Virus record (IMG/VR): IMGVR_UViG_3300009151_000035
Location: 1-64,000 of that record
Origin: a virus
DNA: 64,000 nt
Strand: one strand, 5' to 3'
The notes beneath the pieces are model-generated. The model saw nothing but the letters and a program-made list of their open reading frames with translations. It was not told the DNA's origin and searched no databases. Below, piece by piece: positions 35,297-54,567 of the stretch (position 1 is its first letter; each line of letters opens with the position of its first letter). The position numbers and the translations under genes are program-made.

Positions 35297-36300
35297 CAAC
35301 TTGGCATTTTCACATTGAGATATCCAGCAAGTGTACCTTGCGATGTCCTCGGTGCGCCCGCCAAGAAGTGCCCGATAGTCTTGTTAACACTGAACTAGAT
35401 TTAAAATTTTTCAAACGCAACTTCACTCCAGAGTTTGTGCGAGCCAATGTAGAGAAGATTACATTCTGTGGCGACGACGGTGATCCAATCTATGCACATG
35501 ATTTGGTACATGTGATTAGCTATCTCAAAAGTATACGACCTGTGGAGATTGTGATTGTCACCAACGGCTCGCACAAGAAGTTGACCTGGTGGACTCAGTT
35601 GGGCACTTTGTTGGACCATAACGACAGTGTGCATTTCAGCATAGACGGTTATGACAATGCCAGCAACAATCAGTATCGCGTGAACAGTGATTACGACAGC
35701 ATTATTGATGGACTACAAACATTGCGCAGAATGAGTGCCTGCCAGATCGTGTGGGCCGCTATTGCATTCAAGTTCAACGAACATCATATTGATACAATGA
35801 AAAAACATGCTCAACAACTTGGTGTAGATAGATTTCAGTTGACCAAGAGCACAAAATTTGGTAGTGTGTATCCATCTTACGGTGTAAACGATCCACTTGA
35901 ACCCAGCGTAAAATTTGTAAGCAGTAGCCACAGATTTGAACGCGAAGTTACACCTTTTTCAGAAACAGGCGAATGGACCGCAATTCCTCTTACAAATTTA
36001 AAACTATTCAATCAAACCAAAAGTCGCAACGGCGTAATTCCGTTATGCGAGATAGGCAACAAAGGATTGTACATTGATGCTCGTGGCAGGTTATTTCCCT
36101 GCTGTTGGGTGGCCAATAGATACAATCACAACTCAGACTGGCAACAACTAGCAAACACATTTGATCTAAACATAAAAACACTAACAAACGTATTGGCAGA
36201 TAACTTTTGGATTGAACAGTTCCAAACTTTTAAGTGGCAAGAATGTCAAACCAAATGCTCTAGTGCATTGGTTGACAAAAAATACGCTACTTCTTGGTAA
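35290..36300 (+). CDS. Radical SAM protein with SPASM/twitch-like domain
   Basis: CTLRCPRC, GDDGDP, TNGS, FSIDG, YIDARGRLFPCCW and C..KC. Confidence 0.9.
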   Translation: MLATWHFHIEISSKCTLRCPRCARQEVPDSLVNTELDLKFFKRNFTPEFVRANVEKITFCGDDGDPIYAHDLVHVISYLKSIRPVEIVIVTNGSHKKLTWWTQLGTLLDHNDSVHFSIDGYDNASNNQYRVNSDYDSIIDGLQTLRRMSACQIVWAAIAFKFNEHHIDTMKKHAQQLGVDRFQLTKSTKFGSVYPSYGVNDPLEPSVKFVSSSHRFEREVTPFSETGEWTAIPLTNLKLFNQTKSRNGVIPLCEIGNKGLYIDARGRLFPCCWVANRYNHNSDWQQLANTFDLNIKTLTNVLADNFWIEQFQTFKWQECQTKCSSALVDKKYATSW

Positions 36301-36334
36301 AAGGACTAACTATAGCACATAATCAAAATCACAC

Positions 36335-36763
36335 ATGACATGGCTTTATCAAGATACCCCAATTGAGACACTGCCCGAAGAATGTGTAGGTTTTGTTTAT
36401 CTAATCACAAATAATCTATCTGGACGCAAGTACATAGGCAAGAAACTCGCAAAATTTTCAAAAACAACATACAAAATAGTCAAACAAAAGAACGGCACAA
36501 AGAAGCGGAAGAAGATACGCTCAAAGATCGACTCAGATTGGAGAGAGTACTACGGGTCAAGCCCAGAATTAACCGCAGACGTAATCACCCTAGGCACCGA
36601 AAACTTTACCAGAGAAATACTTTACTATTGTAAATCAAAATCAGAATGTTCGTACATTGAAGCAAGAGAACAGTTCACAAGAAAAGTATTAGAATCAACA
36701 GATTATTATAACGGCCATATTCAAGTTCGTGTGCATGGCTCACACATCATAAACAAACTTTAA
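36335..36763 (+). CDS. GIY-YIG family endonuclease (free-standing, Seg-like)
   Basis: GFVYLITN..SGRKYIGKK...W..YYGSS...FTREIL...E...YYN matches the GIY-YIG catalytic domain; no extra DNA-binding domain. Confidence 0.85.
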   Translation: MTWLYQDTPIETLPEECVGFVYLITNNLSGRKYIGKKLAKFSKTTYKIVKQKNGTKKRKKIRSKIDSDWREYYGSSPELTADVITLGTENFTREILYYCKSKSECSYIEAREQFTRKVLESTDYYNGHIQVRVHGSHIINKL

Positions 36764-37135
36764 TCACGACTCTGTGCTGAGTGTTTGACTCAGCCCCATT
36801 GAGGAACGGTGCGATACCCGGTCCAGACTTGGGCGTCAAAGGCAACTGTTAACTTAAGGCAGCAAATGGTTTGGGCTCTGTGAAAAAGCAACCCATGCTC
36901 GTAGGACTTGGATCTATTTCGGGTTACTAGGGTTCCGTTGATATGTGAAGCTAGAGTAGGGGGTACCGGTCAACCGCCTCCGTGTTGGAAACAACAATCT
37001 CTTTAGAATAGATGACTGGGCTACTCGGATGATGCTCTCTCATGTTCACCGTGCATACGGTGAATTATGACCAGTTAATCTGGATGATACTAAGTCAAGA
37101 AAACAGTTCGTTGTTGAGCGATAGCGAAAAACAAC
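36764..37135 (+). ncRNA. Candidate structured non-coding RNA (or structured origin-like element); orientation inferred
   Basis: Longest intergenic stretch in the window, without a track ORF, holding at least 8 stems, a GAAA tetraloop and G-U pairs that favour the plus strand, and closed by a terminator-like hairpin. Confidence 0.55.
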
Positions 37136-37158
37136 AGACTTGCGTAGCAAGTCTTTTA
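37136..37158 (+). terminator. Intrinsic terminator-like hairpin at a convergent junction
   Basis: AGACTTGC-GTA-GCAAGTCT (8-bp perfect stem) followed by TTT, abutting the stop codon of the convergent minus-strand gene. Confidence 0.6.
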
Positions 37159-37500
37159 ATCATCTAAGTTAGTATCTGGCCAATCTCTAAACAGTGCATG
37201 TTGAATTGTACCTGAAACAAACTGATTGAATGACTTGTGTTTGTCTTCCAGTTCGCCTTTGAGTGGTGCTACTCGACGGAATGCTGAGTCCATTTGCCCC
37301 ATGTCCCGGAACTCCATGAGTATCATCCATTCAGGCATGTCTGCGATTGAACGGAATCCCATCTTGCATCTAGTGATTCTGTATGACTCCATCTTGCCTT
37401 CTGAGATCAAATGATCAAAGAAACTTTTCATTCCATTCACCCAGTCAAGGTCAGTGATGTCGCCTTCTTTGTCTGCCCAAATTGTATATAAGTCTGCCAT
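37156..37500 (-). CDS. Hypothetical protein, dimeric alpha/beta-barrel-like (DUF6614-like)
   Basis: 114 aa; YTIWAD...FFDHL..EGKMESYRITRCKMGF.....EW.I.MEF.DM.Q.DSAF. Family call from memory of the motif. Confidence 0.6.
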   Translation of the reverse strand: MADLYTIWADKEGDITDLDWVNGMKSFFDHLISEGKMESYRITRCKMGFRSIADMPEWMILMEFRDMGQMDSAFRRVAPLKGELEDKHKSFNQFVSGTIQHALFRDWPDTNLDD

Positions 37501-53651: not shown

Positions 53652-53742
53652 TAAATACTTGTCAACGCAATTTGGCGTTTTATGCAGCTCACCACTGCGT
53701 AGCGGCTAGAACCCGCATTGGGCTTCTATAAGGAGAAATCAA
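53652..53742 (+). promoter_or_regulatory. Late promoter plus structured 5' leader (three hairpins, possible pseudoknot) before the SD
   Basis: TAAATA 53652-53657; stems AACGC/GCGTT, TATGCAG/CTGCGTA and GCGG/CCGC; loop TAGAA is complementary to TTCTA next to SD AAGGAG. Confidence 0.5.
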
Positions 53743-54567
53743 ATGGGAAGAGCTCTAAAAATTCAAAAGTACGGTACCGCACAAGGTATCACAATCAATA
53801 CAAATGGCACAGTAAATCAACCCGCCGCCGCTGTAATAATTGACGTTGGCTATCCAAATTTTAACAGTTTGACTGATCCAGTGTTTAACGCACCTGTTCA
53901 GACTCTGTCTGGCACCGAATATCTAGGTGTGGTTGGCGGTTTAAGCACCACAGCAACCACATCAACCAATCCTATCATTCTTCCACAAGTTAATATCTTG
54001 TTGTCAAACAACAGTTCTACTGGTGCAGGTGCAGGTCGTTTGATCCGTCAGAAAGGTGCGCACAAGTTTTTGGTAGCTTATGTTGCTGCTACCACTGCTG
54101 ATGAAGATTTTATTGTTGGTCAAGCATATAGTATTGCTGTGGTAGGCTCAACCAATTGGGCCGCAGTTGGTGCAGGTTCAAGCAATGTGGCAGTAGGCGA
54201 CATTTTCACTGCTACTGCTGTTGGATCTGGTACAGGTGAAGCATATCCAGTTGGTCAATGTGTGTTGTCCAACACTGGTACACCCACAGCTGGCAACATG
54301 TGTATTGAGTATTCAGTAGGCGACAGTTCTGCTGTGTATGCTTCTTACATTACCAACAAGTGGATCCGCGATTGGAACGGTATGACTTATGATACCTATA
54401 GTAACAGCAATCTTGGACCAAACACCTACACTAATGAAAACTTCTATCCTGTGAACTTCTTCACAGACGAAGGCACAGTTACATGGTCTGGCGCTGAAAT
54501 TATCAACAGCATTGCGGCTCAAAATGGTTCTTTACAATTGGCGCAAGTGGTCAAAACCACAAGCTAA
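53743..54567 (+). CDS. Virion structural protein (hypothetical, possibly head decoration)
   Basis: 274 aa, MGRALK start, IRQKG..KFLV motif, strong SD and late promoter; carries a module shared with the giant protein. Confidence 0.65.
   Translation: MGRALKIQKYGTAQGITINTNGTVNQPAAAVIIDVGYPNFNSLTDPVFNAPVQTLSGTEYLGVVGGLSTTATTSTNPIILPQVNILLSNNSSTGAGAGRLIRQKGAHKFLVAYVAATTADEDFIVGQAYSIAVVGSTNWAAVGAGSSNVAVGDIFTATAVGSGTGEAYPVGQCVLSNTGTPTAGNMCIEYSVGDSSAVYASYITNKWIRDWNGMTYDTYSNSNLGPNTYTNENFYPVNFFTDEGTVTWSGAEIINSIAAQNGSLQLAQVVKTTS

What the first reader, a model, noticed from the sequence alone, without database searches (positions are those of the whole stretch)
36764..37135. Unannotated ~370-nt highly structured non-coding element directly downstream of a stand-alone GIY-YIG nuclease
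Seen: the only large intergenic gap in an otherwise tightly packed window is full of stems. These are GCTGAGT/ACTCAGC (36776-36794), TGGG/CCCA (36872-36895), a G-U-rich GACTTGGA/TTCGGGTT stem (36905-36925), and a multibranch domain closed by GAGTAG/CTACTC (36954-37026) containing GGGGG/CCTCC, TGTTG-GAAA-CAACA (GNRA tetraloop) and an alternative or pseudoknot pairing CCGGTCA/TGACTGG. Further on are a long TCATG-TTCACCGT/ACGGTGAA-TATGA hairpin (37040-37070), CCAG/CTGG, and a repeated GGATGAT (37027, 37082). It starts right after the GIY-YIG stop and ends at a terminator-like hairpin. Known: G-U pairs and GNRA loops indicate RNA-level structure, and several nuclease-associated large ncRNAs exist (HEARO, OMEGA RNAs). 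Inference: a new phage ncRNA class, possibly acting as an RNP with this GIY-YIG protein, which has only a catalytic domain plus a basic insert (KQKNGTKKRKKIRSK) and no obvious DNA-recognition domain.
Basis: partly seen in the sequence, partly recalled or inferred. Interest (0 to 1): 0.82.

Follow-up and report, generated by a model that had tools for sequence, protein, structure and literature searches.

The report
Large structured RNA of jumbo phages
The gap after the small nuclease gene encodes a real, strongly conserved, roughly 330-base folded RNA of unknown function, found in hundreds of uncultivated giant aquatic phages; it is an unrecorded sibling of the orphan 'Polynucleobacter-1' RNA motif and carries two short sequence boxes that always change together.

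Summary
Window 36767-37095 (+ strand), plus two terminator hairpins ending at 37154, is a genuine structured RNA. On 65 diverse copies, 98.5% of the cells in 68 proposed pairs are paired. 32 pairs show compensatory double changes, and 0 of 500 shuffles reach this.

At least 119 IMG/VR contigs hold a 28-base core exactly. These are T4-like jumbo phages of 331-347 kb.

No Rfam family matches the window. At the same locus, however, relatives carry three interchangeable RNA types: 37 A, 29 B and 10 C among 80 loci. The 5' part of type B is Rfam RF01718, Polynucleobacter-1 (114 bits), an orphan motif from 2010. Types A and B share an unmodelled 3' module, and type C shares its last part.

That module holds two 7-nt boxes about 55 nt apart. 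They are identical in 117 of 120 distinct copies yet take at least 9 sequence forms. This points to one shared trans partner.

A nuclease-RNA particle is not supported. The GIY-YIG protein does not co-vary with the boxes, other genes can lie between gene and RNA, and cultured phages with the nuclease lack the RNA. The link is not excluded either. The function remains unknown.

The parts
36335..36763 (+). Upstream neighbour: a 142-aa stand-alone GIY-YIG nuclease (Pfam SegE_GIY-YIG). It is probably co-transcribed with the RNA.
   Evidence: Pfam PF19835, E 8.6e-33, covering the full profile. At least 599 relatives in IMG/VR. Homologues in 393 cultured phage records.
36767..36952 (+). Type-A 5' domain, helices P1-P6: P1 36776-81/36789-94; P2 36795-98/36830-33, which encloses P2a/P2b; P3 36846-50/36858-62; P4 36872-75/36892-95; P5 36902-11/36919-29; P6 36930-37/36944-52.
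   Evidence: RNAalifold and pair counts on 65 sequences. Helices 1-8 (P1-P5 with their sub-helices) each contain pairs with double changes. Helix 9 (P6) has no double change: 4 of its 7 pairs never vary and 3 vary on one side only. Coordinates.
36953..37002 (+). Start of the shared 3' module: a three-way junction. P7 is AGAG/CTCT (36953-56/36999-37002). P8 is GGGGG/CCTCC with loop TACCGGTCAACCG (36959-81). P9 is GTTG-GAAA-CAAC (36984-95).
   Evidence: P7 pair types are UA 43, AU 21, GC 1. P9 covaries as AU/GC/UA/CG. The 28-mer 36954-36981 is exact in at least 119 viral contigs. The junction is shared with type B.
37012..37033 (+). Repeat unit 1: ATGAC (37012-16), a spacer, ACTC, then box 1, GGATGAT (37027-33).
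37040..37070 (+). Hairpin P10 (37044-52/37057-65). It probably extends through TCAT (37040-43) pairing with ATGA (37067-70).
   Evidence: Compensatory changes in P10 within type A and between types A, B and C. The extension is supported by three compensated variants: L114 ACAU/AUGU, L111 UCGU/ACGA and L169 UCAC/GUGG, read from the alignments.
37067..37088 (+). Repeat unit 2: ATGAC (37067-71), a spacer, ATCT, then box 2, GGATGAT (37082-88).
   Evidence: Box 2 is identical to box 1 in 117 of 120 distinct modules aligned without requiring identity.
37110..37154 (+). Two terminal hairpins, T1 (37110-35) and T2 (37136-54, followed by a T-run). They end the + strand operon and abut the stop codon of the convergent DUF6614 gene.
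   Evidence: Both stems are among the highest-MI Watson-Crick pairs. Coordinates.
37156..37500 (-). Convergent downstream neighbour, DUF6614. It is not part of the RNA; it marks the junction.
   Evidence: Pfam PF20319, E 8.3e-21. In relatives, accessory genes are inserted between it and the RNA.

Best explanation
Shown: this is a gene for a large structured non-coding RNA. The core is about 330 nt (36767-37095) and two terminator hairpins follow. It lies on the + strand as the last element of the recombination/nuclease operon, at a convergent junction of uncultivated T4-like jumbo phages of 331-347 kb. The RNA belongs to a modular family. One of three alternative 5' domains (A here; B = Rfam Polynucleobacter-1; C) is joined to a common 3' part. 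That part has a hairpin (P10) flanked by two direct repeat units, each ending in the same 7-nt box.

Inferred: the RNA is made by read-through from the upstream gene and is kept as a stable folded species. Its 3' module presents two identical single-stranded boxes to one trans-acting partner present twice, such as a dimeric protein or two copies of one nucleic acid. That partner's specificity differs between phage lineages. The exchangeable 5' domain gives the RNA a second, separable activity or scaffold.

On this reading the neighbouring GIY-YIG nuclease is a syntenic, co-transcribed neighbour and not the specificity partner.
For: RNA reality:
- 98.5% of 4396 cells are paired, 32 of 68 pairs show double changes, and 0 of 500 shuffles reach this. 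Slid controls give 33-48% paired.
- Many invariant G-U pairs fix the + strand.
- All + frames are full of stop codons.
- The core is exact in at least 119 contigs.
- Among 65 diverse type-A copies, most of a roughly 52-nt stretch is invariant, while GIY protein identity in type-A loci falls to 74%.
- Contigs from three RNA libraries of three studies (X2, X3, X4) cover the RNA. One bridges the GIY stop codon into the RNA with 4 differences in 263 nt.

Family:
- RF01718 hits the 5' part of type B at 114 bits.
- The shared 3' module is aligned.
- Census of 80 loci: 37 A, 29 B, 10 C.
- The RNA is single-copy in the complete genomes.

Boxes:
- They are identical in 117 of 120 distinct modules, in at least 9 sequence forms. 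The three bases just before them are fixed and different (CUC versus UCU, 123 of 123), which argues for selection and against gene conversion.
- They are the only non-Watson-Crick pairs among the top 15 MI pairs.
- No complementary partner was found inside the RNA, within about 3 kb, or at any orthologous site in six genomes.

Position:
- Genes inserted upstream are on the + strand and end just before the RNA.
- Genes inserted downstream are mostly on the minus strand.
Against: - No partner has been identified, so the two-copy partner idea rests only on the concerted variation of the boxes.
- Transcription is shown only by contigs from RNA libraries. These cannot give ends, strand or abundance and could include DNA carry-over.
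- The near-universal adjacency to a small nuclease gene, including replacement by a different nuclease family in two loci, could mean a functional link that this reading denies.
- The upstream ATGAC elements of the two units also vary in concert, and both can pair with the same linker. This fits a conformational switch at least as well as it fits a double binding site.
Confidence: 0.45

Rival explanations
1. Nuclease-RNA particle. The RNA binds the upstream minimal GIY-YIG nuclease, which has no DNA-binding domain. The RNA supplies target recognition or a scaffold, and the two boxes act as short guide-like elements for a dimeric enzyme.
For: The GIY gene lies directly upstream in 87 of 119 RNA-seeded loci and within 2.5 kb in 16 more. 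Essentially every GIY-seeded locus of this clade has an RNA with the 3' part. The protein is a catalytic domain only. In L101 and L124 a different small nuclease (PF24608, PD-(D/E)XK) takes the GIY position upstream of the RNA, directly adjacent in L124. RNA types and boxes are swapped between phages whose GIY is 97% identical, as a specificity module would be.
Against: Identical GIY proteins and identical basic inserts go with different boxes, so there is no co-variation. Unrelated + strand genes can lie between GIY and the RNA. The GIY family occurs at similar size in 393 cultured phage records, and none of the three RNA types is detectable there by blastn. In Melnitz only a 148-nt gap with a late-promoter-like TATAAATA follows the gene. 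A 7-nt guide is too short for genome-scale specificity. No site complementary to the box tracks the box type in six genomes.
Confidence: 0.15
2. Cis-acting operon-end element. The RNA is a 3' UTR structure that protects the upstream mRNA from 3' exonucleases. It may also control termination or read-through at the convergent early/late junction by switching between alternative pairings: the linker with ATGAC of unit 1 or of unit 2, and an optional UCGCUUCGCUC element with the loop of T1.
For: It is the last element of the + strand unit in most loci examined, whichever gene precedes it, and two hairpins with covariation follow it. The two ATGAC elements change in the same way, and both stay complementary to the linker in L114, L111 and L169 (alignments). 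An optional element complementary to the T1 loop is seen.
Against: About 330 nt of near-invariant, multi-helix core is far more than stabilisers or terminators need. The three exchangeable 5' domains and the concerted 7-nt boxes have no role in this model. In a few loci a + strand gene follows the RNA (L018, L019).
Confidence: 0.2
3. Catalytic or templating RNA. The two identical boxes are equivalent reaction sites. They could be cleavage/ligation sites that release or circularise the roughly 55-nt hairpin unit. They could instead be donor and acceptor sites for template switching by a polymerase, as the repeated ends of reverse-transcriptase or telomerase templates are.
For: Identical short direct repeats bound a fixed-length unit of 47-59 nt, mode 55. 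Their concerted change is what a copy or realignment mechanism demands. The large invariant core is typical of ribozymes.
Against: No joint between the boxes appears in RNA-library contigs (table 5). No one-unit or three-unit variants occur among about 200 loci. No reverse-transcriptase gene was found in the flanks examined. There is no match to any ribozyme family in Rfam.
Confidence: 0.1
4. Not an RNA at all: a decayed C-terminal DNA-binding domain of a Seg-type homing endonuclease, or DNA-level protein-binding sites.
For: Seg endonucleases normally carry a C-terminal domain. Some relatives have an extra stretch of about 85 aa on the GIY protein. The bipartite repeat units could be DNA operators.
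Against: Compensatory base-pair changes run throughout, with invariant G-U pairs, and the indels are not in multiples of three. Nucleotide conservation in the core is higher than in the neighbouring gene.
Confidence: 0.02

Closest known systems
Polynucleobacter-1 RNA motif (Rfam RF01718; Weinberg et al. 2010, PMC2864571)
   Same: It has the same genomic slot, just downstream of one conserved phage gene family, in the same freshwater and estuary phage clade. Type-B elements at this locus contain RF01718 as their first ~140 nt (114 bits). They then continue into the same 3' module as the window's RNA: P7/P8 with the loop UACCGGNCAACCG, two boxes, P10 and the terminators. Its function is also unknown.
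   Different: The window's 5' domain (36767-36952) gives no RF01718 hit even at E <= 10 and folds into different helices. The shared 3' module is not part of the 141-position Rfam model. The 2010 description noted only that 'the 3' half is not always detected'.
HEARO / OMEGA RNAs of IscB and TnpB
   Same: A structured RNA of a few hundred nt encoded next to a small nuclease gene in a mobile or variable locus.
   Different: There is no RuvC/HNH IscB or TnpB protein, no Rfam HEARO match, and no long variable guide segment. The nuclease here is GIY-YIG and does not co-vary with the RNA.
GOLLD and ROOL, large ornate RNAs of phages and bacteria
   Same: Large, highly conserved, multi-helix RNAs carried by phages, found by comparative genomics, with no assigned function.
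   Different: No sequence or structure match in Rfam. This RNA is smaller and has a modular 5' domain and a tandem repeat-unit 3' module, which are not described for those RNAs (the last point is from my own knowledge).
Lambdoid nut sites (boxA/boxB recognised by N protein): analogy for the boxes only
   Same: Two copies of a short RNA site in one phage are kept identical because the same protein reads both, and the site differs between related phages (from my own knowledge).
   Different: There the two sites lie in two separate operons and act in antitermination. Here both lie about 55 nt apart in a single RNA, and no cognate protein is known.

Membership tests
Polynucleobacter-1 RNA (RF01718) | Match to the Rfam covariance model at or above the gathering score (37 bits) | tested here: not met
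   No hit in window 36200-37400 at E <= 10 and none at gathering score in the whole window. Sibling type-B loci score 113-114 bits.
Polynucleobacter-1 RNA (RF01718) | Location downstream of the conserved gene family noted in 2010 (GOS11034, possible homology to PSSM2_218 of cyanophage P-SSM2) | tested here: inconclusive
   The RNA lies directly downstream of a GIY-YIG gene whose homologues are widespread in T4-like cyanophages. I did not verify that this gene is GOS11034/PSSM2_218.
Composite family proposed here (types A, B and C sharing a 3' part) | 3' module: a P7/P8 junction with loop UACCGGNCAACCG, then two repeat units ending in identical 7-nt boxes around hairpin P10, then two terminal hairpins | tested here: met
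   Window 36953-37154 aligns with 49 modules of types A and B. A profile HMM hits 182 of 199 loci. The boxes are identical in 117 of 120 modules. Type C shares only the box-P10-box part and is not found by the profile.
HEARO / OMEGA RNA | Rfam match, plus an adjacent IscB or TnpB nuclease | tested here: not met
   No Rfam hit. The neighbour is a GIY-YIG domain protein.
Group I intron carrying a GIY-YIG homing endonuclease | Intron core (P3-P9) matching the Rfam model and interrupting a host gene, with exons on both sides | tested here: not met
   No Rfam hit at E <= 10. The upstream radical SAM and GIY genes end at their own stop codons, and the next gene is on the other strand.
tmRNA / tRNA-like RNA | Detection by ARAGORN or by Rfam tmRNA/tRNA models | tested here: not met
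   ARAGORN finds nothing in the window. In four of five related complete genomes it finds a permuted tmRNA elsewhere, and all five have tRNA clusters elsewhere.

The most novel reading that the evidence does not exclude
The RNA is the exchangeable specificity subunit of a minimal nuclease. The co-transcribed GIY-YIG (or, in some phages, PD-(D/E)XK) catalytic domain would assemble as a dimer on the two repeat units. The boxes or the swappable 5' domain would decide what is cut. That would make it the first RNA-directed GIY-YIG system, used in competition between phages or against the host.
Probability: 0.08. Interest if true: 0.92.

Novelty: new variant of a known kind. Interest (0 to 1): 0.66.

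Why it matters
Few large phage RNAs have this degree of comparative support, and this one is present in every close relative examined in a widespread clade of aquatic jumbo phages.

The analysis does three things:
- It turns an orphan 141-nt Rfam motif into part of a longer, modular RNA of 380-500 nt.
- It adds two new 5' domain types.
- It exposes a rare signal: two short boxes that change in concert while staying identical. This predicts a specific, testable partner.

If that partner is a host factor or a defence protein, the RNA would be a new kind of phage-encoded decoy. If it is the neighbouring nuclease, this would be a new class of RNA-dependent nuclease.

At the least, the family deserves an Rfam entry and annotation in jumbo-phage genomes.

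Tried and rejected
1. Thermodynamic test on the single sequence: not significant on either strand.
2. Rfam, at gathering score and at E <= 10: nothing in the region. ARAGORN: nothing.
3. Cultured phages: blastn with types A, B and C found nothing in 50,697 records. The loci of Melnitz and P-HM2 have no two-box module.
4. Bacterial genomes: a 19-mer scan gave 15 hits where about 9 are expected by chance. Only three are real, and they lie on probable phage contigs binned into MAGs.
5. A cis partner for the boxes: no column within -40 to +140 is complementary, and no consistent site lies within about 3 kb.
6. The 11-mer TGGATGATACT in the DUF6614 mRNA (37322): it is conserved whatever the box type, so it is a coding coincidence.
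7. A trans partner in the phage genome: no orthologous site in six genomes tracks the box or its complement. No enrichment of the box in the 147-kb record.
8. Co-variation of the boxes with the GIY protein or its basic insert: none.
9. Pairing between the two spacers: cognate duplexes are no better than non-cognate ones, p = 0.25.
10. Column-wise counts for the P10 extension were uninformative because the register varies.
11. Mini-ORF or ribosomal-bypass readings of the boxes (NNA-UGA/UAA): rejected. The spacer length varies by single bases, and some variants have no stop or no start (alignments).
12. CsrA-type GGA sites: rejected, because the commonest boxes begin with AGA.
13. A sigma-70 promoter reading of TGAC...GATAAT: the spacer is only about 10 nt.
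14. Excision or duplication between the boxes: no three-unit variants in the DNA loci and no joint between the boxes in RNA-library contigs.
15. RNA-library contigs cannot give ends or levels of the RNA.
16. Literature: no description of this RNA was found. A 2023 catalogue of 8495 anonymous IMG/VR candidates (PMC10690425) may contain it; I could not check this.

Full report
**What is there**

The finding sits between a 142-aa GIY-YIG gene (36335-36763, +; Pfam SegE_GIY-YIG, E 8.6e-33) and a convergent DUF6614 gene (37156-37500, -). Upstream lie two radical SAM genes and a Rad50-like ATPase. The window is the first 64 kb of a 147.5-kb IMG/VR record that CheckV rates 42% complete. Related complete genomes measure 331-347 kb.

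All three + frames of the gap are full of stop codons. Rfam gives nothing for the gap, even at E <= 10, and ARAGORN finds nothing. Folding the single sequence is not significant: z = -1.37 on the + strand and -1.82 on the - strand.

**Comparative evidence**

A 28-base piece of the core (36954-36981) occurs exactly in at least 119 IMG/VR contigs. The GIY protein has at least 599 relatives there. A profile of the gap finds 134 full-length copies, 98 of them distinct.

On 65 diverse copies (alignment A1) RNAalifold predicts 71 pairs, 30 of them with compensatory changes. I corrected one helix and removed an unsupported long-range one. After that:
- 98.5% of 4396 cells are paired.
- 32 of 68 pairs show changes on both sides.
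- No shuffle out of 500 reaches any of the five measures.
- Sliding the 3' partners drops pairing to 33-48%.

Many invariant G-U pairs fix the strand as +. An APC-corrected mutual-information scan independently recovers helices P1, P2b, P3, P4, P5, P7, P9 and both terminal hairpins as its top pairs.

Most of a stretch of about 52 bases in the core is invariant across the 65 copies. In type-A loci the GIY protein falls to 74% identity. This is a real structured RNA.

The junction is closed by (A/U)GAG 36953-56 pairing with CUC(U/A) 36999-37002 (UA 43, AU 21, GC 1). It is not closed by GAGTAG/CTACTC. CCAG/CTGG is not supported. The CCGGTCA/TGACTGG pseudoknot is invariant and is broken in three variants without compensation, so it stays open.

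**A modular family, and a link to a known motif**

In about half of the GIY-seeded loci the gap did not match the window's RNA. Those gaps hold other RNAs. Among the 80 best GIY loci there are 37 of type A (as here), 29 of type B and 10 of type C. Of the other 4, 2 are cut short and 2 carry variants.

Rfam RF01718, Polynucleobacter-1, hits the first ~140 nt of type B at 113-114 bits. Weinberg et al. (2010) described that motif from environmental DNA and one Polynucleobacter genome. They noted that its 3' half is not always detected and that most copies lie downstream of one gene family with possible homology to a cyanophage P-SSM2 gene. They assigned no function (PMC2864571, Additional file 1).

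Types A and B share a 3' module that the Rfam model does not cover. It comprises a P7/P8 junction with loop UACCGGNCAACCG, two repeat units around hairpin P10, and two terminal hairpins. Type C shares only the box-P10-box part and the terminators. The window's RNA is therefore a new sibling, not a member, of RF01718.

**The two boxes**

Each repeat unit reads ATGAC, spacer, A(C/T)(T/C)(C/T), then a 7-nt box. I aligned 123 distinct modules to a profile without requiring the boxes to match. In 120 of them both boxes could be read, and in 117 of those the two boxes are identical. The boxes still take at least nine forms:

| Box | Distinct modules |
|---|---|
| GGATAAT | 32 |
| AGATGAT | 32 |
| GGATGAT | 21 |
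| AGATAAT | 20 |
| GGATGAA | 5 |
| AGATGAA | 3 |
| AGATCAA | 2 |
| GGATGAG | 1 |
| GCATAAT | 1 |

ACATGAA, AGATGAG and AGACGAA appear in the regex-based survey; ACATGAA is the box of all type C copies seen.

The three bases just before the boxes are fixed and different (CUC versus UCU, 123 of 123). Gene conversion is therefore unlikely, and selection for identity is the better reading. The two box pairs are the only non-Watson-Crick pairs among the 15 strongest MI pairs. The spacing between boxes is 47-59 nt, mode 55, and no three-unit variants exist.

I found no complementary partner inside the RNA or within about 3 kb. None turned up in the 147-kb record either. No orthologous site in six genomes, covering four box types, tracks the box or its complement.

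The ATGAC elements of the two units also change alike (L169, L114, L111). In each case the linker 5' of P10 changes so as to stay complementary (ACAU/AUGU, UCGU/ACGA, UCAC/GUGG). This extends P10 and leaves room for alternative pairing with unit 1. A direct pairing of the two spacers is not supported (p = 0.25).

**Relation to the nuclease**

Linkage is strong. The GIY gene lies directly upstream in 87 of 119 RNA-seeded loci and 0.5-2.5 kb upstream in 16 more. The link looks like synteny, not partnership, for these reasons:
- The inserts between GIY and the RNA are + strand genes of roughly 300-335 aa that end just before the RNA. The RNA therefore follows whichever gene is last.
- Inserts on the other side are mostly minus-strand accessory genes.
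- Identical GIY proteins and identical basic inserts occur with different boxes and RNA types.
- GIY homologues occur in 393 cultured phage records, and 391 of them cover at least 80% of the query. Most are cyanophages; the nearest are the Methylophilales phages Melnitz at 50% identity. None shows the RNA by blastn.

In two loci a PD-(D/E)XK nuclease (PF24608) replaces GIY upstream of the RNA, directly abutting it in L124. This keeps a nuclease link alive as a minority reading.

**Expression**

Contigs from four RNA libraries of four studies were laid on the region. Records of three of them (X2, X3, X4; marine and salt marsh) cover the RNA itself. The freshwater run X8 mainly covers the GIY gene. 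One marine contig bridges the GIY stop codon into the RNA (36591-36853, 4 differences). Others cover 36826-37062 and 36954-37093. These are contigs, so they show presence in RNA libraries only. They do not show ends, strand or level.

**Reading**

I am about 90% sure that this is a functional structured RNA and a new sibling of Polynucleobacter-1. The mechanism is inferred. The concerted boxes point to one partner read twice. I rank that first, followed by:
- a cis-acting operon-end switch (0.2)
- an RNP with the nuclease (0.15)
- a catalytic or templating RNA (0.1)

Overall confidence in the full statement is 0.45.

Noticed in passing
window 53663-53745 (+): Rfam RF02980, freshwater-2 RNA: 75.5 bits, full-length. 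It is the only Rfam family that reaches its gathering score in the window.
   Followed up: no
L006, L007, L023, L049 (about 255 nt just downstream of the GIY match): In some relatives the GIY-YIG reading frame runs on for about 85 more residues. The extension has a Cys/His-rich, zinc-ribbon-like end (…GPHAGKIVCNTCGGKFVNW…) before a type-C RNA. Other type-C loci (L009, L014, L019) lack it.
   Followed up: partly
L124:2293-2805 (-) and L101:9422-9925 (-): A 167-170-aa PD-(D/E)XK endonuclease (Pfam PF24608, E about 1e-24) occupies the place of the GIY-YIG gene upstream of a type-A RNA. It directly abuts the RNA in L124. In L101 a possible 326-aa ORF on the other strand lies between them.
   Followed up: partly
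Between the RNA and DUF6614 in relatives (e.g. L004 3818-4600, L009 957-2010, L037 3839-4898, L018 3968-4528): The junction is a hot spot for accessory genes. These include an SGNH/GDSL-like protein, a pair that looks like a nucleoside phosphorylase plus adenine phosphoribosyltransferase, and a second GIY-YIG homing endonuclease with a NUMOD3 motif.
   Followed up: partly
Cultured-phage hits (e.g. NC_041997, KR052482, MT408532): Homologues of this GIY-YIG protein are annotated as 'NAD synthetase' in many cultured T4-like phage records. That looks like a propagated misannotation.
   Followed up: no
G001-G005 (complete relatives, 331-347 kb), e.g. G001 101006-111767: Four of the five related genomes carry 24-30 tRNA genes (G004 has five). 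Four of the five carry a permuted (two-piece) tmRNA with proteobacterial-type tags such as ANDEQFALAA. This hints at a proteobacterial host, as does the 2010 Polynucleobacter report.
   Followed up: partly
L205 and L209 (MAG 'Haliscomenobacter sp. EUL_031', contigs of 148 and 183 kb) and L202 (Flavobacteriales MAG, 1.7 kb): Full type-A RNAs lie on two large contigs of one bacterial MAG. These are probably jumbo-phage contigs binned with the MAG and not host DNA.
   Followed up: no
Between box 2 and T1 in many relatives (e.g. L015, L030, L009); absent in the window: An optional element UCGCUUCGCUC (or small GC-UUC-GC-type hairpins with compensatory changes) is complementary to the conserved T1 loop GAGCGAnAGCGA. 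It may offer an alternative pairing at the terminator.
   Followed up: partly
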